Source: an uncultured Nanoarchaeota archaeon (GTDB lineage: Archaea; Nanobdellota; Nanobdellia; Pacearchaeales; GW2011-AR1). Taken from it: a stretch of 52,757 nt of DNA. A program made the translations under genes and the position numbers. The DNA lies in the NCBI GenBank assembly GCA_963779925.1, contig CAVZZS010000007.1, positions 1-52,757 on the forward strand, given 5' to 3'. The notes below the pieces were generated by a model. It ran no database searches and was not told the origin of the DNA. It saw only the letters and a list, made by a program, of their open reading frames with translations. Below are positions 8,657 through 31,747 of the stretch, one piece after another; position 1 is the stretch's first letter; each line of letters opens with the position of its first letter.

Positions 8657-10105
8657 TTAATAGCTTCTACCAATATAGACCCAATAATCTGCAGGTTTTC
8701 CCGAAATTATGCACTTTTTACCCTTTACGGATAAATTCTCCGGAGAAATAAAAAGAGTTTTTGCTCCTCCTGTATCTGCTTTTAACTGCTCTTCGACTTT
8801 TTCGGAATTTGAAAGAGGAACAATTACCATATTTTTTTCTTTTACTAATTTTATCATCTCTTTTTTATTTTCTGTTTTTTTAATAGAACCATTTAGTAAT
8901 TTCTTTGCGTTTTCAAATAACTCTTCATGCATTTGATTAAGTAGCCTTGGAATCTCTCTTTTCAAATCAATGATTTTAACGGATATCTTATTTAGGTTAT
9001 TCCTCTTTACTATTATGACAGATTTCTTTTCAAGCTCTTTAGGGCCAATTTCTATTCTCAAGGGTATACCTTTAAGTTCCCATTCTGAATATTTTCTTCC
9101 GGGAGAGTATTCTTCGCGAGAATCTAGAATCGGATTAAATTCATTTAATATCTTTTTAATCTTCTCTGATTCATCTAAAACTTTCTTCTTTGTTTCATCA
9201 AATAATATTGGGACTATCACAATTTTATTCTCTGCAATTCTAGGCGGTATTACAAGACCCTTGTTATCAGAGTGCATTGCAAACATTGTTCCAAGCATTC
9301 TTGTTGATATCGCAAAAGTATTTTGCCATGCATATTCTTCTTTTCCCTGTTGATTAAGGAATTTGATATTGTAAGCTTTTGCAAAATTTTGTCCATCATG
9401 GTGGAAACAAGGCCCCTCTATTACTCTTCCATTTGGAATTATATAATGTAATTTTTCAGAAAAGACACCGCCCGCAAATTTTTCACTTTCTGTTTTTCTC
9501 CCATAAATACCCGGCAGAGCCATAAGCTCTTCGCAGACTTCTTCATATGCTTTTCTAATTTTTGGCCCTTCTTCCAATGCCTCTTTCTCCGTCGCAAAAA
9601 CGGTATGTCCCTCATTCCAAAGAAATTCTCGTGTTCTGAAAAACGGAACAGGGTTATTAAATTCCCATCTTACAACATTATTCCATTGATTTAATTTTAG
9701 AGGCAAATCTCTCCAACTTCGGATCCATTTAGAGTAAGATTCGTACATGATAGTTTCACTTGTTGGTCTTATAGCTAGTCTTTCACTCAGTTTCATATTG
9801 CCTGCTTCTGTAACCCAAGCTACTTCTGGCGCAAACCCCTTTACATGCTCAGCTTCTTTAGAAAGTAGTTTCTCCGGGATAAATAATGGAAAATATGCAT
9901 TCTCTATATTCATTTTTTTAAATTCTATATTGCATTTTTCTTGAATTTTTTCCCACATTGCATAAGCTAAAGGTCTTAAGATAATACATCCAGAGACAGA
10001 ACTATAATCTGCTAATCCTGATTTTAACATCAATTGCTGATACCATTCAGAAAAGTCTTCCTCCTTCCTTATGGTTATTCCTTCTTCGGATTTTCTTTCT
10101 TTCAT
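8657..10105 (-). CDS. proS: prolyl-tRNA synthetase (archaeal/eukaryal type)
   Basis: FSEWYQQLMLKSGLADYSSVSGCIILRP, RPTSETIMY and FRTREFLWNEGHT. C-terminal ...IGRSY ends in Tyr, as in archaeal-type ProRS. Confidence 0.93.
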   Translation of the reverse strand: MKERKSEEGITIRKEEDFSEWYQQLMLKSGLADYSSVSGCIILRPLAYAMWEKIQEKCNIEFKKMNIENAYFPLFIPEKLLSKEAEHVKGFAPEVAWVTEAGNMKLSERLAIRPTSETIMYESYSKWIRSWRDLPLKLNQWNNVVRWEFNNPVPFFRTREFLWNEGHTVFATEKEALEEGPKIRKAYEEVCEELMALPGIYGRKTESEKFAGGVFSEKLHYIIPNGRVIEGPCFHHDGQNFAKAYNIKFLNQQGKEEYAWQNTFAISTRMLGTMFAMHSDNKGLVIPPRIAENKIVIVPILFDETKKKVLDESEKIKKILNEFNPILDSREEYSPGRKYSEWELKGIPLRIEIGPKELEKKSVIIVKRNNLNKISVKIIDLKREIPRLLNQMHEELFENAKKLLNGSIKKTENKKEMIKLVKEKNMVIVPLSNSEKVEEQLKADTGGAKTLFISPENLSVKGKKCIISGKPADYWVYIGRSY

Positions 10106-10109
10106 TTAT

Positions 10110-10979
10110 CTAATTTATCAGAGTCTGATTTAAATTTTGTTGTGAAATAGTATTTATAGCTTGTTTTACATAATTTGATTCAAGTGCAAATCCCAGATTT
10201 TCACCGCCGCTTATCTTGAAATTGTTTATCCCTATAACTTCCCCCTGTTTATCAATTAAAGGTCCTCCAGAATTTCCCGGATTTAATGAAGTATCTGTTT
10301 GTATATATGCATTTAATCCATTAGCTCCTTGCCTGTTTACTGCGGAAATAATCCCCTCTGAAACAGAGAACTGCAATCCAAGAGGATCCCCAATTGCAAT
10401 GACTTTATCTCCAATTTGAACATTGCTTGAATTTCCAAGTATTAATGCAGGATATTGCCCTGAAATCTTTAGTAGAGCAATATCAAGATTGGAATTATAT
10501 CCGATGAATTGCGCACTTATCACATTCTGGTTATTGGTCACTACTTGTATATTTGAAGCTAAATTCCCATTCGGATCTGCAAGTACATGAGCATTTGTTA
10601 CAATATATCCTTGAGAACTGATTACAAATCCTGTCCCTTGTGCAGAAGATGTTCTGACTGTTACAACTGACGACAAAGCTGTTTGAATTACTCCTGAAAA
10701 ATCATCACTTGTGCTTGCTTTAAGCAAACTTATTTGGCTCTGAACCTGTTGTTGGGTGCTTAAAGTATTATTTTGCAGCTGAAGCAAATTCGAGGCGAGA
10801 GAATTAATCTGGGCCTGATTATTAGTTTGTAATTCAGACAAGGTATCTTTCAAGCTACTATAATGTTGAGTTTCTTGAACATATAAAGAATAATTCATTA
10901 TCCCCAAAAGAATAATCATGGCAAGTATAATGAAGCTGAATCCTCCAATGAGGATTTTATGATGCCTCTTTAATGCCAT
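10110..10979 (-). CDS. membrane-anchored trypsin-like (S1C/HtrA-type) serine protease without PDZ domain
   Basis: N-terminal TM, Q/N/S-rich coil, then GTGFVISSQGYIVTNAHV (His), DIALLKI (Asp) and NPGNSGGPL (Ser). The protein ends right after the protease domain. Confidence 0.85.
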   Translation of the reverse strand: MALKRHHKILIGGFSFIILAMIILLGIMNYSLYVQETQHYSSLKDTLSELQTNNQAQINSLASNLLQLQNNTLSTQQQVQSQISLLKASTSDDFSGVIQTALSSVVTVRTSSAQGTGFVISSQGYIVTNAHVLADPNGNLASNIQVVTNNQNVISAQFIGYNSNLDIALLKISGQYPALILGNSSNVQIGDKVIAIGDPLGLQFSVSEGIISAVNRQGANGLNAYIQTDTSLNPGNSGGPLIDKQGEVIGINNFKISGGENLGFALESNYVKQAINTISQQNLNQTLIN

Positions 10980-11029
10980 GCTTTTATTATATAAATAACA
11001 TATAAAAACTTAACTTGCCTCGAATTTTT

Positions 11030-11101
11030 AGGCTTGTGGTGCAATGGATAGCACAACCGGCTTCGGACCGGTTAATCGGGGTTCGAATCCTCGCAGGCCT
11101 A
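11030..11101 (+). tRNA. tRNA-Arg (anticodon TCG at 11063-11065)
   Basis: Hand-folded cloverleaf. Acceptor AGGCTTG/CAGGCCT, D stem GTGC/GCAC, anticodon stem ACCGG/CCGGT with loop CTTCGGA, T arm CGGGG-TTCGAAT-CCTCG. No encoded CCA. Confidence 0.85.
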
Positions 11102-11154
11102 TTTTCTTTTGATAAAATTTATAAAGTATTCTATATTAATTATTAAAAGAGGAA

Positions 11155-11914: not shown

Positions 11915-13282
11915 TCAGATTATTCGTCTTTTCAAAATATCTTTTGTAATTTTCGAATCCGCTCTTCCTTTTGATTCTTTCATAACTTGCCCTATGAGGA
12001 AGTTTAATGCAGATTCTTCACCATGCTTAAAGTCTTCAGCAGCTTTTTTATTTTCGCCTATTACCTTGTCAACAACTTTTTCGATTTCTTTAATATCCGT
12101 AATTCTTTCTTTTCCCGCAAACTCATTTCCTGGCGAGAAGGATTTTGGGACGAATTTGTTTAGTGTTTTTTTGGCTTGCTCTTCAGTTATTTTCTTTTGC
12201 TGAAGCAATTTCAAGAGCTCAACAAAATGCTCTGGCTTAATGTCTATTTCAGGAGAATCTAGCGATGTTTTATTATAGTTCAAAACCCTTAATAATTCAA
12301 CAGTTACCCATGGTACTGCTAGCCTTGGATACACTTTATCGATTATCTTTTCGAAGAATTCTGCGATTTCAAGCTTCTTTGAGAGAACCTCTGCATATTT
12401 CTCTCCAATATTATATTTTTTAATTAGTTTTTGTAATTTTTCTTGGGGTGTTTCTGGGAGGGATTTTTTTATTTTTTCTATTCTAGAATTTTCAAGAAGA
12501 ATCATTGGCAAATCCGGATCAGAGATAAATTTGTAATCCTGTTCCGCTTCTTTTTCACGCATTTTCTTTGTAATACCCTTAGATTCATCAAACATCCTTG
12601 TTTCTTTAGACTTGGGAACACCTTCTTTTTTCTGCCGTAATTCTTCATACTCAATTGCAGATTTTATATTTTTCAGGCTATTTACATTCTTTACTTCTAT
12701 CCTTTCTCCCTTAAGTTCTGGAAGAGAAATGTTTACATCCGCTTTTAATCCAAGATTCTTATCTACAGACTTTATGTAACCTAAAGTTATTATTATCTGC
12801 TTCAGCCAGTCATAAACCTGCTCTGAAGATTTGAAATCTGGTTCAGTAACAATCTCAATTAAAGGGCTTCCGGATTTATTATAATCAATTTCTCCAGTTT
12901 TTGGGTTCCATGATGCGGGATCCTCTTCAAGATGAACTTCTCTGATTCTTATCCCTAAAAATTTCCCCCCAATACCTACAGGAAAAGCATGCGCTCCCGA
13001 AATTGTATTTTGATACCCTTTTGGCAGATCCGGCCAATCATAATGCTTTCTTTGCCATGCAAGCTCTTTGTTTATTTTGCATCCTAAAATCAAAGCAGTC
13101 TGAATTGTTTTATCTATTGCCTCTCTATTCGGAAGCATGGGCTTTGATCCGGGCTGTCCTGTGCATATAGGGCAAATATAAGTATTTGGTTTAGTTAACT
13201 TTGCTCCATGAATTGATTTGCATTTACAGAATAGCTTCTCTTTTGTTGCAAGATATCCGTGAATTTCCAAGCCAACAATCAT
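11915..13282 (-). CDS. gatB: aspartyl/glutamyl-tRNA amidotransferase subunit B
   Basis: GLEIHGYL, CPICTGQPGSKPMLPN, QRKHYDWPDLPKGYQNT and HLEEDPA. YqeY-like tail ALNFLIGQVMKESKGRAD. Confidence 0.9.
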   Translation of the reverse strand: MIVGLEIHGYLATKEKLFCKCKSIHGAKLTKPNTYICPICTGQPGSKPMLPNREAIDKTIQTALILGCKINKELAWQRKHYDWPDLPKGYQNTISGAHAFPVGIGGKFLGIRIREVHLEEDPASWNPKTGEIDYNKSGSPLIEIVTEPDFKSSEQVYDWLKQIIITLGYIKSVDKNLGLKADVNISLPELKGERIEVKNVNSLKNIKSAIEYEELRQKKEGVPKSKETRMFDESKGITKKMREKEAEQDYKFISDPDLPMILLENSRIEKIKKSLPETPQEKLQKLIKKYNIGEKYAEVLSKKLEIAEFFEKIIDKVYPRLAVPWVTVELLRVLNYNKTSLDSPEIDIKPEHFVELLKLLQQKKITEEQAKKTLNKFVPKSFSPGNEFAGKERITDIKEIEKVVDKVIGENKKAAEDFKHGEESALNFLIGQVMKESKGRADSKITKDILKRRII

Positions 13283-13370
13283 AATTAAAACATAAAATTA
13301 TAATTTATTAATTTATGGATAATTAAACAGAAGACAATAGTTTTTTATATTATTTAATGATTCTTTAGAT

Positions 13371-14660
13371 ATGGAAACAAAGGCTCAGCCTGGCGATAAT
13401 GTTGAAATTTTATTGATGAAGGATTCTTACAAAGGAACATTATTGCAAAGCCCCGAATCTGAAAAAGGAATTATTCTTTTAAAATTAAACTCAGGTTATA
13501 ATCTAGGACTGAACCGAAAAGACATTCGTGAAATTAAAATCCTAAAAAAATTCCATGAAGGAACAAAAGAAGATGTTGAGATTAAAAAAGACAAGGAAAA
13601 ACCAAATATTGCGGTGATAATTACCGGGGGGACAATTGCCTCAAAACTAGATCCAAAAACGGGGGGGGTTGATCCTTTAACCAAGCCCGAAGACTTTTTC
13701 AAATCCTATCCTGAGATCTTTGAAAAGGTTAATGTTCTAAAAATTGAGACTCCTTTTATGAAAGCTTCTGAAGACATGGATCCTTCCGACTGGCAGAAGA
13801 TTGCACGAACTGCAGAAAATTTGCTTAATGATGGAAATATTAAGGGGATAATAATTGCTCATGGAACAGATACTTTGCATTATACTTCTGCGGCATTATC
13901 TTTCTTTTTGAGAAATTTGAACAAGCCCGTTGTTTTGACTTATAGCCAGAGAAGTATTGATCGAGCTTCAAGCGATGCGAGATTAAATTTACAATGTGCA
14001 GCATTAGCAGCAATTTCAGACATAGCTGAGGTTATGCTTGTCGGACATGGAAGCACAAATGATGATTTCTGCTATGCAATACCAGGAACTAAGGTCAGAA
14101 AGTTGCATACTTCAAGGAGAGATGCATTTAAGGCAGTCAATTCAGAGCCTTTTGCTAAAATTTTTCCGGATAAAATAATCAAAATGTCGGATTATAGAAT
14201 GAGAGATGGCAACAAGATAAAATTAGATACAAAACTTGAAGAAAAAGTTGCTCTAATTCGCATTTACCCTGGACAAGATCCGGATATTCTGGATTACTAT
14301 TTGAAAAATAAATATAAAGGCGTCATTTTGGAGATGACTGGACTTGGACATGTTCCTACGAGCAAAGCAAAAAAATCATGGCTGAAAAAACTCAAGGAAG
14401 TTCAGAATAAAGGCATGATTGTTTGTGCAACGGCGCAGACTATTTTTGGAAGACTTGACCCTTATGTTTACTCTAATGGAAGAGACATCCTCGAAACAGG
14501 AGTTATTTATCTTGAGGATATGCTTTCTGAAGTTGCACTTGTAAAATTAGAATGGGTTTTGGGACATGAAGAATGGAGAAAAAGCAAGGAAATTGTAAAA
14601 GAAAAGATGCTTCAGAATTTCTCACATGAAATCAATAAGCGTTTAGAATTTGAAGAGTAG
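13371..14660 (+). CDS. gatD: glutamyl-tRNA(Gln) amidotransferase subunit D
   Basis: Asparaginase-like motifs ITGGTIAS, AHGTDTLHYT and MTGLGHV, with the archaeal GatD N-terminal extension. Confidence 0.92.
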   Translation: METKAQPGDNVEILLMKDSYKGTLLQSPESEKGIILLKLNSGYNLGLNRKDIREIKILKKFHEGTKEDVEIKKDKEKPNIAVIITGGTIASKLDPKTGGVDPLTKPEDFFKSYPEIFEKVNVLKIETPFMKASEDMDPSDWQKIARTAENLLNDGNIKGIIIAHGTDTLHYTSAALSFFLRNLNKPVVLTYSQRSIDRASSDARLNLQCAALAAISDIAEVMLVGHGSTNDDFCYAIPGTKVRKLHTSRRDAFKAVNSEPFAKIFPDKIIKMSDYRMRDGNKIKLDTKLEEKVALIRIYPGQDPDILDYYLKNKYKGVILEMTGLGHVPTSKAKKSWLKKLKEVQNKGMIVCATAQTIFGRLDPYVYSNGRDILETGVIYLEDMLSEVALVKLEWVLGHEEWRKSKEIVKEKMLQNFSHEINKRLEFEE

Positions 14661-14694
14661 TTGTAATAACTGTATAGGAGTTACATTCGTAAGA

Positions 14695-14702
14695 TTTAAA
14701 TA
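14695..14702 (+). promoter_or_regulatory. TATA-like box (tttaaata) for the NTase/phosphoesterase cassette
   Basis: The 8-mer ends 22 nt before the ATG at 14724. Identical box and offset occur at gatE, aspS and the 19230 gene. Confidence 0.45.
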
Positions 14703-14723
14703 GGAATTTTAGTTCTAGTTTTA

Positions 14724-15509
14724 ATGGCCAATATTGAAGAGATGGAATTAGTGCTTCTTTGTAATAGCAATTATGATAGTTATAACCGACTTGCTTCTTC
14801 ATTAGATAACTATGATCCTTTAAGGTACATGATGGCAATTTCTAATTCTGCTAATGAATCAGGAGCATCAGAAAAGATAGCATTTATAGGCGGTTTAGGT
14901 GTTTTAGGTAATCTTGTTAGAATCGTAGGGAATAAGGCGATTTTTCAATGGAGAGAATTTCATGATGTTGATTTACTATTAAAAGATAGAATTTATGAAG
15001 TGGCAATAAAAAGCGTTTTTGATAATATTGATGTTTATGAGCCCTCTAAATCTATTAGAAATAAACTGACTTTAAGAGGAAAGTCTACTGATTCAGAAAA
15101 ACGTACCCTTGAATCTGTGGCTGTAGATATATATCATCCTAATGGGAACCCCCGAAATGGTATAAATGTTGCTGGATTAAGAATTGATTCTGAATTTTGG
15201 GATAGATCCTTAACTACTCCTTTTTATGGAATTCCTGTTAGGTTTTTGGATCCTATTGATATTCTCAATCTTAAACTTAAAATCATTTGCGGAAATGATG
15301 GTCATCCTAGAACAAAAGATATCCAGGATATATATCATCTTCTTTCAGTAGCGGATAGTATTGGGTATGACCCACGAAAAGTTAAAGATAAAATTAGTAA
15401 AACTTATTCATGTCAAAGTTTAGACGATATATCATCTTTGCTTGATGCTGAAGAATTTATTCCTATAATTAAACTTGATTCTAAATATAAGAATAAAGCA
15501 TTAAAATGA
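14724..15509 (+). CDS. nucleotidyltransferase-fold protein, AbiEii/MenT (DUF1814)-like (261 aa)
   Basis: IAFIGGLGV...WREFHDVDLL fits the GG...R-x-x-x-D-x-D NTase pattern. Further acidic strand VAVDIYH. C-terminal RTKDIQDIYHLL resembles the AbiEii K/RDxxDl motif. Assignment is by eye only. Confidence 0.55.
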   Translation: MANIEEMELVLLCNSNYDSYNRLASSLDNYDPLRYMMAISNSANESGASEKIAFIGGLGVLGNLVRIVGNKAIFQWREFHDVDLLLKDRIYEVAIKSVFDNIDVYEPSKSIRNKLTLRGKSTDSEKRTLESVAVDIYHPNGNPRNGINVAGLRIDSEFWDRSLTTPFYGIPVRFLDPIDILNLKLKIICGNDGHPRTKDIQDIYHLLSVADSIGYDPRKVKDKISKTYSCQSLDDISSLLDAEEFIPIIKLDSKYKNKALK

Positions 15510-16126
15510 AGATTTTATTACTATCTGATATTCATCAGGATTATTTCTCAGCAGAAAATGCGGGATTAGTTGAAAATCCTGATCTTGTTCTAGATTGTGG
15601 GGACCATCATGAATTAATGACTTTATTTGAGCTTACTCCCCATTATTTTGTTCATGGGAATCATGAGCCTTTTAATATTACCTTAAATGAAGAAGGTTTT
15701 CCTTTGCCTTATAAAATCGATTCAAATGTTATTTATACTTTCAAGAAGGGGAAGATTTCATTAAACTTCGCCGGAATAGGCGGTAATTATTCTTCTCGTT
15801 TAGAAGATAAAAGCGTAAATGACTCTGATGTAATAAAATTGAATAGATTTGCTCCCGGGAGTATAAATGTATTGCTGCTTCATGAATCTCCTCTTAATGT
15901 TTCTCACTCCCAAGGGGGTTATAATCTGGCTCAAAAAGTTATAAAAGAAATAAAACGTATAAAACCAGAATATGTCTTTTCTGGACATTCTGGACGATTT
16001 AGTAAAAGAGATTTAGGCCCAATTAAGTTTATTAATTTGGATGATATCGCTCAAGGGTATGGCAGATTAGAAAGTACTCAAGAATCCTCTTTCCATTTTA
16101 GCAGAGTTCTTTCTAAATATCGTTAA
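15506..16126 (+). CDS. calcineurin-like metallophosphoesterase (206 aa)
   Basis: Ordered motifs LLSDIH (DxH), CGDHH (GD), HGNHEP (GNHE), LLHESP and SGHSG (GH). Its start overlaps the upstream stop (ATGA), implying translational coupling. Confidence 0.8.
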   Translation: MKILLLSDIHQDYFSAENAGLVENPDLVLDCGDHHELMTLFELTPHYFVHGNHEPFNITLNEEGFPLPYKIDSNVIYTFKKGKISLNFAGIGGNYSSRLEDKSVNDSDVIKLNRFAPGSINVLLLHESPLNVSHSQGGYNLAQKVIKEIKRIKPEYVFSGHSGRFSKRDLGPIKFINLDDIAQGYGRLESTQESSFHFSRVLSKYR

Positions 16127-16128
16127 AA

Positions 16129-16136
16129 TTTAAATA
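16129..16136 (+). promoter_or_regulatory. TATA-like box (tttaaata) for gatE
   Basis: Ends 22 nt before the ATG at 16158. Confidence 0.45.
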
Positions 16137-16157
16137 ATCCTTTTCTTTTTCTATTTT

Positions 16158-17600
16158 ATGTTTAAAAAATCTGAATTAAAATGCGGTCTGGAAATTCACC
16201 AGCAGCTTAATACAAAAAAGCTATTCTGTGAATGTCCCTCTATCTTAAGAAGTGAAGAACCTGATTTTACAATAAAAAGAAAATTGCATGCTGTTGCGGG
16301 TGAAAGCGGAGAAGTGGATATTGCTGCTAAGTATCAGGCTAGTCTGAATAAGCATTTTATTTATCAGGGATATGAAGATACAACTTGTTTGATTGAATTG
16401 GATGAATCTCCCCCTAGAGAAATTAATGTTGATGCTTTGAGAATTGCAACTCAAGTTGCTTTACTCCTTAATTGCAAGATAATTCCGATAACTCAAATAA
16501 TGAGAAAAACAGTCATTGATGGGAGTAATACTTCTGGATTTCAGAGAACCGTTTTGATTGCGCATGGGGGATATGTTGATACTATTCATGGGAGAATTGG
16601 AATTAGTAGTATTTGCCTTGAAGAAGATTCTGCTAGAATTATTTCTGAAAAAAATAATGAAGTGACCTATCGACTTGATAGGTTAGGAATACCGTTGATA
16701 GAAATTGCAACATCTCCCGATATTTCAGATTCGGAACAAGCTAAAGAAGTTGCTTTGTATATAGGAAATGTACTGAGAAGTTGCGATGTAAAAAGAGGAA
16801 TAGGAACAATAAGACAAGACGTCAATATGTCTATTTCAGAATCCAATTGGACAAGAATCGAAATCAAGGGAGTTCAGGAACCTGCTCTTATAATCAAGAC
16901 TATAAATTCTGAGATTGAAAGAGAAAAAGAATTAATAGACAAAAATAAAATAATTGAACCTCAGGTAAGAAAGGCTATTCCAGATGGTTCTACAGAATTT
17001 TTGAGACCAATGTCTGGAGCCTCTAGAATGTATCCTGAGACAGATTTGCCTTTGTTAAAAATAAAAAAAGACTTTATTGACGAAGTTAAAAGGAATCTTC
17101 CAAAGCTTTCTTCTGAATTGGTAAGTGAACTTAAAAGATTTGGATTACATGAAGAATTAATTAGTTTAATTCTAAAAGACAAGAGAATTGAAGAATTCAA
17201 GGAACTTATGCAGATAATAAAAAATCCGGAATTGGTTGCTAAAGTTCTTGTTCTTTATCCTAGAGAATTGGCTTCTAAGAATGATTTAAGTGAAGAAAAA
17301 ATTAAAGACATTCTTAATAAAGACATTCTTTCCGGAATATTGGAAGCTGTTCAAAGGAAGAAAATAACTGATAGGCAAGTTAGAGAAACAATGGAACGAA
17401 TAATCAAAGGAATTGAATTTTCTGATGCTCTTAAATTTGAAGAACATGATTCTGGAAAAGTTGAAGAAAAAATTATTAATCTTCTCAAAGAAAAGCCCGG
17501 ACTTTCGGATAATGCATATATGGGTTTGCTCATGAAAGAATTCAAGGGAAAAATTGACGCCAAAAACTTGATTGATATTATCAAGAGATATAAAGCATGA
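16158..17600 (+). CDS. gatE: glutamyl-tRNA(Gln) amidotransferase subunit E (compact, 480 aa)
   Basis: GLEIHQQLNTKKLFCEC, RKTVIDGSNTSGFQRT, IEIKGVQ and RMYPETDLP. YqeY-like tail AYMGLLMKEFKGKIDAK. Confidence 0.9.
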   Translation: MFKKSELKCGLEIHQQLNTKKLFCECPSILRSEEPDFTIKRKLHAVAGESGEVDIAAKYQASLNKHFIYQGYEDTTCLIELDESPPREINVDALRIATQVALLLNCKIIPITQIMRKTVIDGSNTSGFQRTVLIAHGGYVDTIHGRIGISSICLEEDSARIISEKNNEVTYRLDRLGIPLIEIATSPDISDSEQAKEVALYIGNVLRSCDVKRGIGTIRQDVNMSISESNWTRIEIKGVQEPALIIKTINSEIEREKELIDKNKIIEPQVRKAIPDGSTEFLRPMSGASRMYPETDLPLLKIKKDFIDEVKRNLPKLSSELVSELKRFGLHEELISLILKDKRIEEFKELMQIIKNPELVAKVLVLYPRELASKNDLSEEKIKDILNKDILSGILEAVQRKKITDRQVRETMERIIKGIEFSDALKFEEHDSGKVEEKIINLLKEKPGLSDNAYMGLLMKEFKGKIDAKNLIDIIKRYKA

Positions 17601-17605
17601 TTAAT

Positions 17606-17613
17606 TTTAAATA
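17606..17613 (+). promoter_or_regulatory. TATA-like box (tttaaata) for aspS
   Basis: Ends 22 nt before the ATG at 17635. Confidence 0.45.
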
Positions 17614-17634
17614 TAGTTATTATCTGTAATTGAA

Positions 17635-18933
17635 ATGGATTTAGAAAAACTGGAGAAGGAAATCAGCCCAATTGAAGATATTTTTAAAAAGAATCTTAAG
17701 GAAGTTTCATGCGCCGGTTGGGTAAGTAATACAAGAGAACTCGGAAAGATAAAATTCCTCCTGCTTAGAGATATTACGGGGATCATTCAAGTTACCGCAG
17801 TAAAAGAAAAAACGGATAATAAAATTTTTAGTTTAATTGATAAGATCTCGAGGGAATCCGTTATTTATGTTAAAGGGACAGTCAAAGAATCAAAACAAGC
17901 ACCGGGAGGGAAGGAAATTATCCCGGAAAAAATTGAAGTTATTAATTCTGCAGAGAATCTTCCCATTGATATCTCCGATTTCTCAAAGACTGAACTTTCA
18001 AAGAGATTGGATTACAGATTTTTAGATTTTCATAGGAAAAGAATACAGGCAATTTTTAGAATACAAAATGTTATTGCTAATTCATTCAGAGAGCATTTCT
18101 ATAATAAAGGATTTTTGGAAATGCAACCTCCTTGTGTAATCAGTGCGGCAAGTGAAGGCGGGACTGAATTATTCCCTGTCCAATATTTTGAAAAGAAAGC
18201 ATATCTTGCACAATCTCCCCAATTGTATAAGCAAATGATTGCATGTTCAATGGAAAAAACTTTCATGATAACTCCCGTATGGAGAGCTGAAAAACATAAT
18301 ACTCCGCGTCATATAAATGAAATAAGGCAAATGGATATTGAAGTTGCATTTAAAGATCAAATGGGCATTATGAAAGAACTTGAAGAAGTTGTCCAATTTG
18401 TCGTTAAGAAAGTTTTGGAAAAATGCAAAGAAGAATTAGAAACTCTCGATATTAAAGATTTGAAAGTTCCGAAGGGAGTTTATCTTAACTATGAAGATGC
18501 GATAAAGAAAGTTGGGGGAAAAATCGGGGAAGACTTTACTCCAGAAGAAGAAAGAAAACTTTGCAATATGTACAAAGGAGATGTAGTATTTACACATTCC
18601 TGGCCTTCGGCGATTAAGCCCTTTTATATCATGCCAAAAGATGAGAAAGCCGATTCCAAAATAAGTGAGGGCTTTGATGCTCTTTATTTGGGCGTTGAGA
18701 TTTCTAGCGGGGGGCAAAGAATACATTTACCAGAATTATTAACAAAAAGAATTAAAGCAAAAGGATTGAATCCAACCAATTTCAAAGATTACATTGATAG
18801 TTTCAGATATGGGGCTCCACCTCATGCAGGATGGAGTATCGGTCTGGAAAGATTAACCCAAATGATTTGTGGTTTGGATAATGTAAAGGAAGCAACCATG
18901 TTTCCAAGAGATAGGGACAGATTAACCCCTTAA
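17635..18933 (+). CDS. aspS: aspartyl-tRNA synthetase (archaeal type, presumably non-discriminating)
   Basis: N-terminal OB domain. Class II motifs FREHFYNKGFLEMQPP, VWRAEKHNTPRHINE and GAPPHAGWSIGLERL. Archaeal C-terminus FPRDRDRLTP. Confidence 0.93.
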   Translation: MDLEKLEKEISPIEDIFKKNLKEVSCAGWVSNTRELGKIKFLLLRDITGIIQVTAVKEKTDNKIFSLIDKISRESVIYVKGTVKESKQAPGGKEIIPEKIEVINSAENLPIDISDFSKTELSKRLDYRFLDFHRKRIQAIFRIQNVIANSFREHFYNKGFLEMQPPCVISAASEGGTELFPVQYFEKKAYLAQSPQLYKQMIACSMEKTFMITPVWRAEKHNTPRHINEIRQMDIEVAFKDQMGIMKELEEVVQFVVKKVLEKCKEELETLDIKDLKVPKGVYLNYEDAIKKVGGKIGEDFTPEEERKLCNMYKGDVVFTHSWPSAIKPFYIMPKDEKADSKISEGFDALYLGVEISSGGQRIHLPELLTKRIKAKGLNPTNFKDYIDSFRYGAPPHAGWSIGLERLTQMICGLDNVKEATMFPRDRDRLTP

Positions 18934-19000
18934 TTATTATAAAAAAATTTAAAAAGGTTAATAATTAGTAGCATTAATCCTTAAAGGAGGAGGAGTTGCA

Positions 19001-19138
19001 ATGAAAAATAACAAAAAACTTGAAGAAGATGAAGATCAAGACAAGACTGATGACGAAGTAACTGAAGATGAAGAAGATATGGAAGATGAAGAAGAGGAAG
19101 ACAGTTCTTCAGATGAAAGCGACGATTACGGTTACTAG
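19001..19138 (+). CDS. hyper-acidic 45-aa peptide (below ORF-track cutoff)
   Basis: ATG preceded by ggaggaggag (18986-18995) at about 5-nt spacing. Translation is MKNNKKLEEDEDQDKTDDEVTEDEEDMEDEEEEDSSSDESDDYGY. T-rich tract follows the stop. Confidence 0.5.
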   Translation: MKNNKKLEEDEDQDKTDDEVTEDEEDMEDEEEEDSSSDESDDYGY

Positions 19139-19200
19139 GTCTTTTTTATTTTATTTTTTACTATAGTGGGGTTTTTCAATTTTTATTTATTATAATTAAT

Positions 19201-19208
19201 TTTAAATA
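19201..19208 (+). promoter_or_regulatory. TATA-like box (tttaaata) for the 19230 gene
   Basis: Ends 22 nt before the ATG at 19230. Confidence 0.45.
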
Positions 19209-19229
19209 GAACCTATTTTTTCTGAGATT

Positions 19230-19670
19230 ATGGCAGATATTGAAACAACATTAAAGCATTGGCATACTTTATCTGAAGAAGAAAAAAATGCAATTCGAGA
19301 CAAAAGAGATTATCCTATTTTATGCGTAATAGATGGCTTATCTCCAGATGAGAGAAAAAGAATTTATGATACAATTCAAATACACCCTACCAGTCTTCCC
19401 AGTTTCATGGTAAAACAAAAAGAATGGCTTTCTGATTTTGTTTATTATTTGGATGAGAATCTTAAAAGACGAAATTTGGCCCACAGTCCCGAGGTTATAA
19501 ATGACTTGGTTTTAGATGAGATAATTAATGGTTCAATGCATGAGAGATTCAGATTATATTGGGCAGCAAGGAATCGATCTGAGATTATGCCTTCTGATAG
19601 TCAAGAACTTACAGATTACTTGACCGAAGTTGACAAGGCAATTGAACTTTTAAGAGTTAAATCTGCTTAA
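19230..19670 (+). CDS. hypothetical protein (146 aa) embedded between aspS and gatC
   Basis: Intact ORF with its own promoter-like box. No recognisable motif. Confidence 0.55.
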   Translation: MADIETTLKHWHTLSEEEKNAIRDKRDYPILCVIDGLSPDERKRIYDTIQIHPTSLPSFMVKQKEWLSDFVYYLDENLKRRNLAHSPEVINDLVLDEIINGSMHERFRLYWAARNRSEIMPSDSQELTDYLTEVDKAIELLRVKSA

Positions 19671-19710
19671 TCTTAATTAATCTTATAAATATCAAATAAC
19701 TGATTTAATC

Positions 19711-19974
19711 ATGGAAGACTTTTTATTTCATAATATTTCTGAAGATGAAAAAGAACGTATAAGAAGAGATGCAAAAAAAATAATTGATTCCTTTTCTGAG
19801 AAAATTTCTAAAATAAAAGTACCTGATGAAGAACCTATTGTAAAAAGAAAAGAGTTTGAGAGAATTGAAGGAAATGGTGAAGAATGCGATAATGATTTCA
19901 AAAAAATCATGTTTGAAAATGCGCCAAATAAAAGTGGAGATTTTATTCTGGCAGAAAAGAAAAAATGGGAATAA
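19711..19974 (+). CDS. gatC: aspartyl/glutamyl-tRNA amidotransferase subunit C (probable)
   Basis: 87 aa, overlaps the gatA start by 10 nt. C-terminal ...FENAPNKSGDFILAEK resembles the GatC NAP...g.f.vP tail. Called mainly from position and size. Confidence 0.6.
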   Translation: MEDFLFHNISEDEKERIRRDAKKIIDSFSEKISKIKVPDEEPIVKRKEFERIEGNGEECDNDFKKIMFENAPNKSGDFILAEKKKWE

Positions 19975-21293
19975 CTACTATTGAAAAGCTCAGAAAATAT
20001 CTAGAAGAAATAAAGAAAAATGATCAGCAAGGCAAAAAAATCAACGCCTTTATTCATGTTAGAAATGAGAAAGAACTCTTAAAAGAAGCAGAAGAAGTTG
20101 ATAGAAAAATTAAATCTGGAAAGTCAGGAAAACTTGCAGGTAAAATCATCGCTGTAAAATCCTGCATTAATGTCAAAGGAGAAATTGTCTCTTGTGGATC
20201 AAAGACTCTTGAAGATTATCGCGCATCATATAATGCAACTGTTATTGAGAAAATCAGGAAAGAAGATGGTATTATAATCGGCATGACAAATATGGATGAA
20301 TTTGCATCTGGAAGTAGCGGTGAAACAAGTGCATTCGGACCTACCAAAAACCCAAGGAATTTAGAATTAATTCCCGGAGGTTCTTCTAGCGGTAGTGCTG
20401 TTTCTGTAGCAGCTGGTTTTTGTGATATGGCTCTTGGAACAGATACTGGTGGTAGCATAAGGAATCCTGCTTCACATTGTGGTATTGTTGGAATAAAGCC
20501 CACTTATTCTTCTGTCTCAAGATACGGTTTGATTGATTTGTCTATGAGTTTAGATCAAATTGGAACTCTTGCGAATAATGTTGAAGATGCTGGATTATTA
20601 TTAAGCATTATAAAGGGAAAAGATGAAAAAGATTCAATCTCACAACATTCTGAAGAAATAAATCTTAATGAGATTCAAAAAATACCAAAAAATTTTACTA
20701 TAGGAATATTAAACTTTGAGATTCAAAATAAAGAAATACAGAATATAATAAAAAAAAGAATAGATGAAATTGCAAAAAAATATAATCTAAAAATTGAAAA
20801 TATCAAAATTAAAAATATTGATTTGGCTATTGAAACATATTACCCTCTTGTCTATGTTGAATTCTTTTCTGGTACGAGAAAGTTTGATGGCAGAAGATAT
20901 GGAAAAAGAATTGAGAATGCGGCCGGAGAAGAAGTTCTCAGAAGGATATTGGGTGGAAGTGAAATTTCTAGAGCAGAGTATGGAGGACGATATTATCACC
21001 AGGCATTAAAAATAAAGAATCTTATAGAGAAAGATTTTTCAGAGATATTCAAAAAAGTCGATTGTATAATTTCTGCAACTGTTCCAAAATTGCCTCATAA
21101 AATTGGCACTAAAATTTCAGTAAAAGAAATGTATGAATATGACGCTTTAACTGCCCCTTCAAATCTTGCGGGAAACTGTTCAATTAGTATTCCTGTTGGA
21201 GAAATTGGCGGAATTCCTATCGGAATGCAGATAATGTGCGATAAATTCCAAGAACAAAAAATGTTACAAATTGCAAGAGCATTTGAGAAATAA
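19965..21293 (+). CDS. gatA: glutamyl-tRNA(Gln)/aspartyl-tRNA(Asn) amidotransferase subunit A
   Basis: Amidase signature GGSSSGSAVSVAAG and GTDTGGSIRNPAS. Confidence 0.92.
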   Translation: MGITTIEKLRKYLEEIKKNDQQGKKINAFIHVRNEKELLKEAEEVDRKIKSGKSGKLAGKIIAVKSCINVKGEIVSCGSKTLEDYRASYNATVIEKIRKEDGIIIGMTNMDEFASGSSGETSAFGPTKNPRNLELIPGGSSSGSAVSVAAGFCDMALGTDTGGSIRNPASHCGIVGIKPTYSSVSRYGLIDLSMSLDQIGTLANNVEDAGLLLSIIKGKDEKDSISQHSEEINLNEIQKIPKNFTIGILNFEIQNKEIQNIIKKRIDEIAKKYNLKIENIKIKNIDLAIETYYPLVYVEFFSGTRKFDGRRYGKRIENAAGEEVLRRILGGSEISRAEYGGRYYHQALKIKNLIEKDFSEIFKKVDCIISATVPKLPHKIGTKISVKEMYEYDALTAPSNLAGNCSISIPVGEIGGIPIGMQIMCDKFQEQKMLQIARAFEK

Positions 21294-24331: not shown

Positions 24332-25432
24332 TTAGAAATTTATTACTCCTCCTCCAAGAACTTCTTTTCCTTTATAGAGCACTATTGCTTGCCCTTCTGA
24401 AACCCCCGTAATTGATTTATTCAAAATAACTTCAAATCTTTTCTTGTTTTTGTTATAAAATAATTTGGATGGAATTAATTCTCCTACTTGACGGATTCTT
24501 GAATAAACCTTCATTTCCTTTTTTTTAATTGAGTTTATCCAATGTGGATCAGAAATAATGATATCTTTCCTATAAAGGATAGGATGGCCTTCTGGTGCTG
24601 CAATAATTATATTCCTCTTTGCATCTTTTTTTGCGACATACCATCTTTTTACTTGCTCATTTTCTTTATCTCTTTGGACATCAAAACCATATCTTGGACC
24701 GAGTCTTTGGCCGATTGTATAATAATAAATCCCATCATGTTCTCCGATAATTTTCCCATTCGGGTCAAGGATTTTTCCATTTTTGGCTTTCAATTTCTTT
24801 TGCAAGAAATCTTTTAGATTTATTTTCCCAATGAAACAAATTCCCACTGTTGATTTCTTATTGAAATTCGGAAAACCTGCTTTTTTTGCAATTTCTCTTA
24901 CTTCTTTTTTTGTATAATCTCCGATTGGAAAAAGAGAATGCCTTAATTCATCTTGGGTTAATCTGTATAAAAAATAAGACTGGTCTTTTGACTCATCTTT
25001 AGCTCTCAGCAATTTGTAACTTCCTCTTGCTTTTTTAATCCGAGAATAATGTCCGGTTACTATAAAATCAGCCCTCCTCTTTTTGGCTTCTTCTATCAAT
25101 TTTGGGAATTTTATCTTCTGATTGCAATCCACATCCGGATTTGGAGTTATCCCCATTTTATACTTTTTGAACATTTCATCAACAACATCTTTTTTGTATT
25201 CTTTTTCATAATCTAATGTTATTAACTGAATATCTAATGCAGAAGCGATTTGTGCTGCTATTCTTCTTTCTTCTCTCCAACTACATTCTCCAAGCTCATT
25301 TTTTGTATCACTCCAGTTTTTCATAAAAGCTCCAATTACTTCGTAGCCTTTATTTTTCATCATGAGTGCAGCTACACTAGAGTCTACTCCCCCAGACATT
25401 GCAACAAGGACTTTTAGTTTTTTCATATTCAT
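24332..25432 (-). CDS. mnmA: tRNA 2-thiouridine(34) synthase, bacterial MnmA type
   Basis: PP-loop VLVAMSGGVDSSVAA, CFIGK and C-terminal GQAIVLYKG..VLGGGVI. Start trimmed to Met28 (25432; Met30 at 25426 also possible) because the longer ORF runs into the tRNA-Asn gene. Confidence 0.88.
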   Translation of the reverse strand: MNMKKLKVLVAMSGGVDSSVAALMMKNKGYEVIGAFMKNWSDTKNELGECSWREERRIAAQIASALDIQLITLDYEKEYKKDVVDEMFKKYKMGITPNPDVDCNQKIKFPKLIEEAKKRRADFIVTGHYSRIKKARGSYKLLRAKDESKDQSYFLYRLTQDELRHSLFPIGDYTKKEVREIAKKAGFPNFNKKSTVGICFIGKINLKDFLQKKLKAKNGKILDPNGKIIGEHDGIYYYTIGQRLGPRYGFDVQRDKENEQVKRWYVAKKDAKRNIIIAAPEGHPILYRKDIIISDPHWINSIKKKEMKVYSRIRQVGELIPSKLFYNKNKKRFEVILNKSITGVSEGQAIVLYKGKEVLGGGVINF

Positions 25433-25455
25433 ATTATCTAAACAGAATTTAAAAA

Positions 25456-25528
25456 CGTCCCGGAGAGGACTCGGACCTCTGACCCCATGATTAACAGTCA
25501 TGTGCTCTACCAACTGAGCTACCGAGAC
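25456..25528 (-). tRNA. tRNA-Asn (anticodon GTT)
   Basis: Minus-strand cloverleaf. Acceptor GTCTCGG/CCGGGAC, D arm GCTC-AGTTGGTA-GAGC, anticodon stem CATGA/TCATG with loop CTGTTAA, T arm AGAGG-TCCGAGT-CCTCT. No CCA. Confidence 0.82.
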
Positions 25529-25564
25529 ATATTTTTAGGAATAAAGAAGGATATTTAAAAATGT

Positions 25565-31609: not shown

Positions 31610-31674
31610 ACATAATTTATTTATTTTTTATTTTTAGGTATATTTAAAAATGAGGGACGCGGATTTCCCTTTAT

Positions 31675-31747
31675 GCCCCCATAGTTCAGAGGCCAAGAAT
31701 GCGGCCCTTTCACGGCCGTGACCCGGGTTCGAATCCCGGTAGGGGCA
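31675..31747 (+). tRNA. tRNA-Glu (anticodon TTC)
   Basis: Acceptor GCCCCCA/TAGGGGC (one C6-A67 mismatch), D arm GTTC/GAAT, anticodon stem CGGCC/GGCCG with loop CTTTCAC, T arm CCGGG-TTCGAAT-CCCGG. No CCA. Confidence 0.82.

What the first reader, a model, noticed from the sequence alone, without database searches (positions are those of the whole stretch)
14661..16157. NTase-fold (AbiEii/MenT-like) plus metallophosphoesterase cassette wedged between gatD and gatE
Seen: two ORFs (261 aa and 206 aa) interrupt gatD and gatE. They have their own tttaaata box 22 nt upstream of the first ATG, and gatE carries its own box too. They are translationally coupled through an ATGA stop/start overlap at 15506-15509. 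ORF1 shows a GG...R-E-F-H-D-V-D-L motif, a later VAVD acidic strand and a C-terminal KDIQDIYHLL motif, which matches the polymerase-beta-like NTase layout of the AbiEii/DUF1814/MenT family. ORF2 has all ordered calcineurin-like metallophosphoesterase motifs (DxH, GD, GNHE, H, GH). Established: AbiEii/MenT proteins are NTase toxins, and MenT members nucleotidylate tRNA 3' acceptor ends and block aminoacylation. They normally pair with AbiEi/MenA-type antitoxins, which are absent here. Inference: a phosphoesterase partner could hydrolytically reverse or trim a nucleotidyl modification. The cassette would then be either a new toxin/antidote (defence-like) pair or a tRNA 3'-end editing and repair module. 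Its position inside a tRNA-amidotransferase/AspRS cluster makes a tRNA substrate attractive. I know of no described NTase plus metallophosphoesterase pairing of this type.
Basis: partly seen in the sequence, partly recalled or inferred. Interest (0 to 1): 0.75.

Follow-up and report, generated by a model that had tools for sequence, protein, structure and literature searches.

The report
Conserved archaeal nucleotidyltransferase–phosphoesterase gene pair
Two overlapping genes between gatD and gatE encode a very divergent AbiEii-like nucleotidyltransferase and a small metallophosphoesterase; the pair is not an inserted toxin cassette but an old, vertically inherited and undescribed part of the tRNA-amidation gene cluster of Woese-/Pacearchaeota (DPANN archaea).

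Summary
ORF1 is 14724-15509 (261 aa) and ORF2 is 15506-16126 (206 aa), joined by an ATGA overlap. ORF1 and gatE each have a TATA box 29 nt before the ATG; ORF2 has none. All quoted motifs are present.

ORF1 matches no Pfam, NCBIfam or PADLOC model. An exhaustive profile search finds 113 family representatives, and an 81-sequence alignment gives a confident model (pLDDT 93). Its best PDB match is JHP933 (DUF1814/AbiEii as I recall). GG, DxD, a third Asp and a C-terminal K...DxxD are conserved. Distant members pass the PF08843 cut-off. ORF2 is a genuine calcineurin-like phosphoesterase.

The "wedged cassette" reading fails. In 11 independent loci the phosphoesterase gene directly follows the transferase gene, usually with the same 4-nt overlap. 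gatE follows in 7 of the 8 loci whose contig continues. Divergence tracks that of GatE, composition matches the flanks, and there are no close viral homologues or adjacent mobile genes. This favours a housekeeping module over a toxin-antitoxin or defence pair.

The mechanism is inferred: most likely 3'-end healing plus nucleotide addition on RNA, probably tRNA. A writer-eraser pair or a small-molecule substrate remain open. The acidic pI of both families argues weakly against RNA binding.

The parts
14695..14702 (+). TATA box (TTTAAATA) of the ORF1-ORF2 unit, starting 29 nt before the ORF1 ATG (leaderless-type promoter)
14724..15509 (+). ORF1, 261 aa: divergent AbiEii/DUF1814-superfamily nucleotidyltransferase. 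Layout: N-terminal helices 1-45, NTase core 52-175, C-terminal helical bundle 177-260. Catalytic D81, D83, D135; also G56 G57, K184, D199, D202.
15506..15509 (+). ATGA stop/start overlap (translational coupling). The same 4-nt overlap is found in 5 of the 7 gene-called loci tabulated; L001 reads the same ATGA at its frameshifted junction.
15506..16126 (+). ORF2, 206 aa: small calcineurin-like metallophosphoesterase (Metallophos / Metallophos_2). Ligand set D8, H10, D33, N52, H126, H161. The second His of the usual GHxH motif is absent.
16129..16136 (+). TATA box of gatE, starting 29 nt before its ATG and 3 nt after the ORF2 stop codon
13371..14660 (+). gatD (context, upstream neighbour)
16158..17600 (+). 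gatE, short form of 480 aa without the central insertion domain (context; the conserved downstream neighbour of the pair)
17635..18933 (+). aspS, non-discriminating Asp-tRNA(Asn) ligase (context)
11915..13282 (-). gatB (context; divergent from gatD)
19711..21293 (+). gatC-gatA (context; completes the tRNA-dependent amidation cluster). The GatC match is below the NCBIfam cut-offs.

Best explanation
**Shown**
- ORF1 and ORF2 form a two-gene, translationally coupled unit with its own promoter.
- ORF1 is a catalytically intact pol-beta-fold nucleotidyltransferase, from a family that is a far outlier of the AbiEii/DUF1814 superfamily.
- ORF2 is a small metallophosphoesterase that keeps a full six-ligand metal site.
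- The pair is a vertically inherited core-genome feature of Woese-/Pacearchaeota (DPANN). It nearly always sits directly in front of gatE, inside the cluster for tRNA-dependent Gln/Asn formation.

**Inferred**
- The two enzymes act in sequence on one substrate, as a 'heal-and-extend' module for RNA 3' ends, most likely tRNA.
- The phosphoesterase would remove a 2',3'-cyclic phosphate, a 3'-phosphate or a damaged terminal nucleotide.
- The nucleotidyltransferase would then add nucleotide(s) to the freed 3'-OH.
- This is the logic of the NTase plus phosphohydrolase combination in bacterial CCA enzymes (HD domain), PolX-PHP, LigD and Pnkp (from my own knowledge).
- It is not a mobile toxin-antitoxin or defence cassette.

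The confidence given (0.4) is for the whole statement including the inferred mechanism; the 'shown' part alone I would put at about 0.85.
For: **Fold and residues of ORF1**
- AF2 model from the 81-sequence alignment: pLDDT 93.2, pTM 0.92.
- Foldseek against PDB: top hits are JHP933 4o8s (E 4e-5), NTase-like 5uvd, Mimivirus poly(A) polymerase and TM1012, followed by pol mu/beta.
- D81, D83 and D135 are invariant; G56 G57 R77 K114 K184 D199 D202 are at least 90% conserved across 81 sequences.
- Bridge to AbiEii: P0082 scores 23.0 bits and P0093 27.6 bits against PF08843 (cut-off 22.5). hhalign of the 3-sequence core against a CPR protein that UniRef names AbiEii gives probability 97.4%.

**ORF2**
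- PF00149 41.9 bits (cut-off 21.5) and PF12850 37.2 bits (cut-off 27).
- Ligand residues are invariant or nearly invariant (H10) in 56 homologues.

**Linkage**
- ORF1 homologue directly followed by ORF2 homologue in 11 independent loci: window, L001, L002, L004, L005, L006, L007, L009, L011, L013, L014.
- Four more pairs of homologues share a contig length.
- The 4-nt overlap is shared by the window and 4 of the other 6 gene-called loci; L001 reads the same ATGA at its frameshifted junction.
- gatE follows directly in 7 of the 8 loci whose contig continues.

**Vertical inheritance**
- Pairwise identity is 32-53% for ORF1, 35-57% for ORF2 and 51-67% for GatE.
- ORF1 versus ORF2 divergence correlates at r = 0.77; ORF1 versus GatE at r = 0.63.
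- GC is 0.31-0.33, the same as the flanks.
- No close relatives on viral contigs.

**tRNA link**
- The cluster holds gatB, gatD, gatE, aspS, gatC and gatA.
- A distant family member sits directly after a non-orthologous, bacterial-type AspRS (L020).
- A second, canonical GHxH phosphoesterase lies next to, or 3 kb from, distant NTase members (L026, L022).
Against: - No biochemical evidence exists for any substrate.
- Both families are acidic (median pI 5.9), while most tRNA-binding proteins in the window have pI 8.3-9.3 (GatE and PheRS beta are about 6.5). This argues weakly against RNA binding.
- ORF1, gatE and aspS each have their own promoter, so co-transcription with gatE is not required.
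- Gene order in small genomes can persist without a functional link.
- One locus has the pair without gatE (L007).
- More distant family members have other partners and other neighbours: an r-protein operon, and orc1/DNA ligase.
- The closest characterised relatives are toxins.
- Pacearchaeota already carry a class-2 CCA-adding enzyme (bioRxiv 10.64898/2026.05.29.728689), so a CCA-repair role would be redundant or accessory.
Confidence: 0.4

Rival explanations
1. Writer-eraser pair. The NTase nucleotidylates a target and the phosphoesterase hydrolyses the phosphodiester to remove the mark. The target would be the tRNA 3' end, or a protein of the amidation or aminoacylation pathway such as GatDE or AspRS. 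The result would be reversible control of translation in a host-dependent symbiont.
For: - It uses the same enzymology as the best explanation.
- AbiEii/MenT relatives add nucleotides to tRNA acceptor ends (my own knowledge).
- The neighbourhood is gatDE/aspS.
- The acidic pI would fit a protein target.
Against: - Fixed 1:1 translational coupling of two opposing enzymes gives a futile cycle unless one of them is regulated.
- No sensor or regulatory domain is seen in either protein.
Confidence: 0.2
2. Toxin-antitoxin or defence module. ORF1 would be an AbiEii/MenT-like toxin that blocks tRNA charging. ORF2 would be an enzymatic antitoxin that reverses or prevents the modification, by analogy with DarT/DarG or toxSAS/SAH.
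For: - Superfamily kinship with AbiEii toxins.
- A compact two-gene unit with its own promoter and overlapping genes.
- A weak PADLOC hit of ORF2 to PDC-S10 (E 1.4e-5).
- Tandem NTase paralogues with a Fic gene nearby in L026.
Against: - Same genomic position and gene order in 7 or more lineages with GatE at 51-67% identity; divergence correlates with GatE.
- Host-like GC.
- No adjacent mobile-element genes in the window.
- No close viral homologues.
- No PADLOC hit for ORF1.
- No AbiEi/MenA-type gene seen next to it.
- The PDC-S10 hit is at the level of generic phosphoesterase similarity.
Confidence: 0.12
3. A small-molecule or signalling-nucleotide enzyme pair unrelated to tRNA. Examples: synthesis and hydrolysis of a nucleotide messenger, or nucleotidylation of a metabolite followed by phosphodiester cleavage. 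Its position next to gatE would be frozen gene order.
For: - Both proteins are acidic.
- Small Metallophos_2 enzymes (YfcE/MJ0936 type; weak TIGR00040 hit) are generic phosphodiesterases, and class III cNMP phosphodiesterases belong to the same superfamily (my own knowledge).
- The promoters are separate.
- L007 has the pair away from gatE.
Against: - The neighbourhood with gatE recurs, and a distant member sits next to a non-orthologous AspRS.
- All characterised enzymes of the AbiEii superfamily act on RNA ends (my own knowledge).
Confidence: 0.2
4. ORF1 is the organism's CCA-adding enzyme, replacing the canonical one, with ORF2 as its end-cleaning partner.
For: - None of the three tRNA genes in the window encodes CCA, so CCA addition is essential.
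- No canonical cca gene was found among the ten longest other ORFs of the window scanned against Pfam.
Against: - A survey of high-quality DPANN genomes reports class-2 CCA-adding enzymes in a monophyletic Pacearchaeota clade, and reports CCA1 or CCA2 across the set (bioRxiv 10.64898/2026.05.29.728689).
- ORF1 lacks the neck, body and tail domains and matches no CCA family.
- Only about 52 kb of this genome was visible.
Confidence: 0.03

Closest known systems
AbiEii / MenT (DUF1814, Pfam PF08843) nucleotidyltransferase toxins, including the solved JHP933 of H. pylori
   Same: - Pol-beta NTase core followed by a helical bundle.
- GG...DxD, a third Asp, and a C-terminal K...[KR]DxxD[IL] motif.
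- Best PDB fold match is JHP933.
- Distant family members reach the PF08843 cut-off.
   Different: - ORF1 itself matches no PF08843 model, and TM-scores are only about 0.45-0.5.
- The GG-to-DxD spacing is 23 residues, with an extra short helix.
- No AbiEi/MenA antitoxin gene is seen.
- The partner is a downstream metallophosphoesterase.
- The location is core-genome and syntenic.
- The protein is acidic.
DUF6036 (PF19502) and DUF2204 (PF09970; TM1012 structure 2fcl as I recall), uncharacterised NTases
   Same: - Weak HMM hits in a few family members (4 of 81 and 2 of 81).
- TM1012 is among the fold matches.
   Different: - All of these hits are weak and none was checked against the family cut-offs.
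- These families have no known function or partner to compare with.
NTase plus phosphohydrolase end-repair combinations: bacterial class II CCA enzyme with HD domain, PolX-PHP, LigD Pol-PE, Pnkp (my own knowledge)
   Same: - The same functional logic: a metal-dependent phosphoesterase that cleans a 3' end, linked to a nucleotidyl-transferring enzyme.
   Different: - Different folds and families.
- Those are fused domains, whereas here there are two coupled genes.
- No homology was shown.
Toxin-antitoxin pairs with an enzymatic, modification-reversing antitoxin: DarT/DarG, toxSAS/SAH, HepT/MntA (my own knowledge)
   Same: - A two-gene unit in which a hydrolase could undo a transferase's product.
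   Different: - Those pairs are patchy and mobile, whereas this pair is syntenic and vertically inherited.
- No toxicity data exist.
YfcE / MJ0936-type small metallophosphoesterases (Metallophos_2, TIGR00040)
   Same: - Size of about 200 aa, and the motif order DxH, GD, GNHE, H, GH.
   Different: - The second His of GHxH is missing (consensus GHxGxY).
- An invariant H34 follows GD.
- No PDB sequence match at E <= 0.01, even with a profile.

Membership tests
AbiEii/MenT (DUF1814, PF08843) | Match to the PF08843 profile above the gathering score | tested here: not met
   ORF1 has no Pfam hit at E <= 1 other than a spurious one. Only distant family members pass: P0082 at 23.0 bits and P0093 at 27.6 bits, against a cut-off of 22.5.
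AbiEii/MenT (DUF1814, PF08843) | Pol-beta-type NTase core plus C-terminal helical domain | tested here: met
   Model pLDDT 93.2. The top Foldseek PDB hits are JHP933 4o8s/4ok0, 5uvd and other NTases.
AbiEii/MenT (DUF1814, PF08843) | Motif I (GG ... DxD) and motif II (third acidic residue) | tested here: met
   G56 G57 are at least 90% conserved. D81, D83 and D135 are invariant in 81 sequences. The spacing is longer than the classic 9-13 residues.
AbiEii/MenT (DUF1814, PF08843) | C-terminal motifs III/IV (K ... [RK]DxxD[IL]) | tested here: met
   K184, D199, D202 and L206 are at least 90% conserved. The motif aligns to the same motif of MenT1 8an4, though the match is not significant (E 0.35).
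AbiEii/MenT (DUF1814, PF08843) | Cognate AbiEi/MenA-type antitoxin gene alongside | tested here: not met
   Where identified, the upstream neighbours are gatD, kae1/tsaD or DUF1003. The downstream neighbour is always the phosphoesterase.
AbiEii/MenT (DUF1814, PF08843) | Toxicity; NTP transfer to tRNA acceptor ends | not testable with these tools
   This needs expression and in-vitro assays.
Calcineurin-like metallophosphoesterase (PF00149 / PF12850) | Profile match above the gathering score | tested here: met
   PF00149 41.9 bits (cut-off 21.5) and PF12850 37.2 bits (cut-off 27).
Calcineurin-like metallophosphoesterase (PF00149 / PF12850) | Ordered metal-ligand motifs DxH, GD, GNH[DE], H, GH(xH) | tested here: met
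   D8, D33, N52, H53, H126 and H161 are invariant and H10 nearly invariant in 56 homologues. The second His of GHxH is absent, which leaves a PPP-like six-ligand set (the comparison with PPP enzymes is from my own knowledge).
Mobile toxin-antitoxin / defence module | Patchy, horizontally moving distribution in variable regions, with atypical composition or mobile-element and viral association | tested here: not met
   Synteny with gatE is conserved. Divergence correlates with GatE. GC equals that of the flanks. There are no close viral homologues. ORF1 has no PADLOC hit.
CCA-adding enzyme (class I or II) | Match to CCA-enzyme families and domain set (head, neck, body, tail) | tested here: not met
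   No such Pfam or NCBIfam hit. At 261 aa the protein is too short. Pacearchaeota are reported to carry CCA2.

The most novel reading that the evidence does not exclude
The NTase-phosphoesterase pair is a lineage-specific accessory of the GatDE/AspRS indirect aminoacylation machinery in Woese-/Pacearchaeota. It would edit or reversibly cap the 3' ends of tRNA(Gln)/tRNA(Asn), or modify GatDE itself. It may have co-evolved with the loss of the tRNA-binding insertion domain from GatE, which is about 480 aa in most linked loci (474-518 aa where full-length) against about 620-630 aa in the canonical form. That would be a domesticated AbiEii/MenT-type enzyme working as a housekeeping tRNA-end factor, with an enzymatic partner of a kind not described before.
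Probability: 0.12. Interest if true: 0.85.

Novelty: new variant of a known kind. Interest (0 to 1): 0.55.

Why it matters
- **A possible housekeeping AbiEii relative.** AbiEii/MenT nucleotidyltransferases are known only as toxins of mobile toxin-antitoxin and abortive-infection systems. Here a far relative is fixed in the core genome of some of the smallest archaeal genomes. It is co-translated with a phosphoesterase and embedded among the genes that make Gln-tRNA and Asn-tRNA. If it acts on tRNA ends, it would be a domesticated member of a toxin family and a new tRNA maintenance or control step in DPANN archaea.
- **An uncovered family.** The family has 113 clusters at 50% identity and no Pfam, NCBIfam or PADLOC model. 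A model built from it would annotate genes now labelled 'hypothetical' in many Woese-/Pacearchaeota genomes.

Tried and rejected
1. **Direct family searches with ORF1** (Pfam, NCBIfam, PADLOC, PDB sequences) gave nothing usable. The 'lysozyme' and Ubc12 hits are short low-complexity matches.
2. **Word-indexed homology search** found only 2 relatives of ORF1. The repeat with the 81-sequence profile found 6. Only the exhaustive profile search opened up the family.
3. **AF2 with 3 sequences** failed (pLDDT 36). With 81 sequences it succeeded.
4. **The search for related loci**: alignment A2 was too divergent to scan the metagenome collection. The ORF2 scan returned only 2 close loci and 3 generic phosphoesterases. 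The viral scan returned only relatives at 26-27% identity on very large contigs.
5. **ORF2 profile against PDB sequences** gave nothing at E <= 0.01. The best weak hit was the small phosphoesterase 2kkn.
6. **Horizontal-insert hypothesis** was rejected on composition and synteny.
7. **CCA-enzyme replacement** was judged unlikely from the literature.
8. **Literature searches** for the pairing and for DUF6036 found nothing relevant.
9. **Downstream partner of distant NTase members** (L018, 219 aa; L020, 128 aa). The two are homologous to each other but match no family. The only hit is a non-significant one to aminoglycoside 2''-adenylyltransferase.
Full report
**1. The observation**

The region holds two ORFs on the + strand: 14724..15509 (261 aa) and 15506..16126 (206 aa). 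They overlap in ATGA at 15506-15509.

NCBIfam scores the upstream protein as GatD (460 bits, cut-off 310) and the downstream protein as GatE (480 bits, cut-off 456). Around them lie gatB (divergent), non-discriminating aspS, gatC (below the cut-offs) and gatA. The neighbourhood therefore carries the complete set for tRNA-dependent Gln and Asn formation.

TTTAAATA starts exactly 29 nt before the ATG of ORF1, gatE, aspS and the ORF at 19230. The 8-mer is not enriched in the window as a whole (11 found, 14.8 expected). Its position is what matters: 16 of the 52 gene starts examined, including these four, have a TATA-like 8-mer at -28 to -32. That is the geometry of leaderless archaeal transcripts. 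ORF2 has no box and depends on coupling to ORF1.

**2. What ORF1 is**

ORF1 matches no model in Pfam, NCBIfam or PADLOC. It has no meaningful PDB sequence match. The word-indexed search of 5.8 billion proteins found only two relatives.

An exhaustive profile search of 1.84 billion representatives found 113 proteins at E <= 0.001. Of these, 72 are at E <= 1e-10, and almost all are 250-300 aa long. In an alignment of 81 of them, D81, D83 and D135 are invariant. G56, G57, R77, K114, K184, D199, D202 and L206 are at least 90% conserved.

With that alignment AlphaFold gives a confident model (pLDDT 93.2, pTM 0.92). It shows N-terminal helices, an alpha/beta core with D81/D83 and D135 on neighbouring strands, and a C-terminal helical bundle.

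Foldseek against the PDB returns, in order:
- JHP933 of H. pylori (4o8s/4ok0), a DUF1814/AbiEii-family NTase by my own knowledge
- the NTase-like 5uvd
- Mimivirus poly(A) polymerase
- TM1012
- FKRP and polymerases mu and beta

TM-scores are modest, at 0.45-0.5.

The link to AbiEii also holds by sequence, transitively:
- The 3-sequence core profile reaches P0082 and P0093. These pass the PF08843 gathering score, at 23.0 and 27.6 bits against 22.5.
- hhalign of the core against P0085 gives probability 97.4%. P0085 is a Woesebacteria protein that UniRef names AbiEii.

ORF1 is therefore a catalytically intact nucleotidyltransferase from a far, uncovered branch of the AbiEii/DUF1814/DUF6036 superfamily. 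By profile it is not a member of PF08843.

**3. What ORF2 is**

ORF2 passes the cut-offs of PF00149 and PF12850. It has 56 homologues at 40-57% identity, all 201-225 aa apart from one 154-aa fragment. The few that carry names are called metallophosphoesterase or phosphodiesterase from Pacearchaeota or Nanoarchaeia.

D8, D33, N52, H53, H126 and H161 are invariant and H10 is nearly so. The second His of the usual GHxH motif is missing. This leaves a six-ligand site like that of PPP phosphatases (my own knowledge).

The family is far from every solved phosphoesterase at the sequence level. The PADLOC hit to PDC-S10 (E 1.4e-5) is at the level of generic superfamily similarity.

**4. The pair is conserved, not inserted**

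Wherever a close ORF2 or ORF1 relative could be placed on a contig, the two genes are adjacent and in the same order. This holds for 11 independent loci. Four further pairs share contig lengths. The same 4-nt overlap is found in 5 of the 7 gene-called loci tabulated. L001 reads the same ATGA at its frameshifted junction.

gatE follows directly in 7 of the 8 loci whose contig continues. The exception is L007.

gatD lies upstream as follows:
- directly in the window, L009 and L014
- with one gene in between in L004
- with five genes in between in L011
- in L001 the upstream gene is kae1/tsaD instead

The proteins have diverged deeply: 32-53% identity for ORF1, 35-57% for ORF2 and 51-67% for GatE. 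The divergences correlate, at r = 0.77 for ORF1 against ORF2 and r = 0.63 for ORF1 against GatE.

The GC content of the two genes (0.31-0.33) equals that of the flanks. No close homologue lies on a viral contig. Named members come from Woesearchaeota, Pacearchaeota and Nanoarchaeia, with CPR bacteria at the far edge.

This is the signature of a vertically inherited core module, not of a mobile toxin-antitoxin or defence cassette.

**5. The wider family**

More distant NTase members lack the ORF2-type partner but keep suggestive neighbours:
- In L020 the NTase directly follows a bacterial-type AspRS with a GAD domain. This AspRS is not orthologous to the window's aspS. The NTase is followed by a 128-aa protein.
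- In L018 the NTase is followed by a 219-aa homologue of that protein and lies beside the ribosomal-protein operon.
- In L026 two tandem NTase paralogues are followed by a convergent, canonical GHxH phosphoesterase.
- In L022 the orthologue of that phosphoesterase lies 3 kb from the NTase, which sits between orc1/cdc6 and DNA ligase.

The association of the NTase with a phosphoesterase, and with Asp-tRNA synthesis, therefore recurs in independent forms.

**6. Mechanism**

No result here shows a substrate. I commit to a sequential 'heal-and-extend' module for RNA 3' ends, most likely tRNA. The phosphoesterase would clear a 2',3'-cyclic phosphate, a 3'-phosphate or a damaged terminal nucleotide. 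The NTase would then add nucleotide(s).

Reasons for this choice:
- The characterised relatives of ORF1 act on tRNA 3' ends (my own knowledge).
- Fixed translational coupling suits two steps of one pathway better than two opposing activities.
- The combination of a nucleotidyl-transferring enzyme with a metal phosphohydrolase recurs in the CCA enzyme (HD domain), PolX-PHP, LigD and Pnkp (my own knowledge).
- The neighbourhood is tRNA-centred.

Evidence against:
- Both families are acidic, with median pI 5.9, in a window where most tRNA-binding proteins have pI 8.3-9.3.
- The promoters are separate.
- Gene order in small genomes can be inert.

A role as the sole CCA-adding enzyme is unlikely. 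The window's tRNA genes do lack an encoded CCA. However, a Pacearchaeota clade is reported to carry class-2 CCA enzymes (bioRxiv 10.64898/2026.05.29.728689).

The rivals are a writer-eraser pair, a small-molecule or messenger pair, and a TA module. They are ranked in the report sections.

**7. Novelty and verdict**

I found no description of this pairing, or of this NTase family, in the paper library. No curated model covers ORF1.

Its 'wedged cassette / toxin-antidote' framing is not supported.

I rate the finding as a new variant of a known kind, of moderate interest. It is a conserved, uncharacterised enzyme pair in a clear biological context, and it can be tested directly by simple biochemistry.

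Noticed in passing
window 16158-17600; also L001 11445-12890, L005 2009-3565, L009 10671-12140, L011 10654-12078: GatE is only 474-518 aa in all these genomes, against a 630-position NCBIfam model. The match comes in two stretches, the first covering model positions 6-268. Pfam shows GatB_N, with or without GatB_Yqey, but no GAD-like insertion domain. These DPANN GatE proteins therefore appear to lack the insertion domain.
   Followed up: partly
window 11915-21293: All genes of the indirect Gln/Asn-tRNA pathway sit within 9.4 kb: gatB, gatD, gatE, non-discriminating aspS, gatC and gatA. The window also encodes AlaRS, ProRS, ThrRS and PheRS alpha and beta, as well as MCM and an RFC-like ATPase.
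   Followed up: partly
window, gene starts throughout (e.g. 14724, 16158, 17635, 19230, 26848, 27849, 37155, 44097, 49911): A TATA-like 8-mer starts 28-32 nt (mostly exactly 29 nt) before the start codon of many genes, and likewise about 29 nt before the 5' end of tRNA-Asn. This implies mostly leaderless mRNAs.
   Followed up: partly
window 11029-11102, 25455-25529 (-), 31674-31748: None of the three tRNA genes (Arg-TCG, Asn-GTT, Glu-TTC) encodes the 3' CCA. The mechanically listed ORF 24332..25513 (TTG start) overlaps tRNA-Asn, so its true start must lie further downstream.
   Followed up: partly
L001 10001-10783: In the Pacearchaeota MAG GCA_046705325.1 the ORF1 homologue is split into two frames (10001-10480 and 10520-10783). 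This is either a frameshift pseudogene or an assembly error. The ORF2 homologue and gatE behind it are intact.
   Followed up: no
window 19230-19670: A 146-aa ORF with its own -29 TATA box lies between aspS and gatC. It matches no Pfam or NCBIfam model.
   Followed up: no
L018 7850-8509 and L020 7753-8139: Distant NTase family members are followed by a different small partner protein (219 aa and 128 aa). The two partners are homologous to each other (E 2e-8) but match no family. The only hit is a non-significant one to aminoglycoside 2''-adenylyltransferase.
   Followed up: partly
L026 71-2447 and 4412-7186: Two tandem, 4-nt-overlapping NTase paralogues (292 and 300 aa) are followed by a convergent canonical phosphoesterase. 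A Fic-domain gene and a YbaK/tRNA_edit gene lie within 5 kb.
   Followed up: partly
L004 1268-1648 (-), L011 8607-9005 (-): A DUF1003 gene on the opposite strand sits directly upstream of the NTase in two loci.
   Followed up: no
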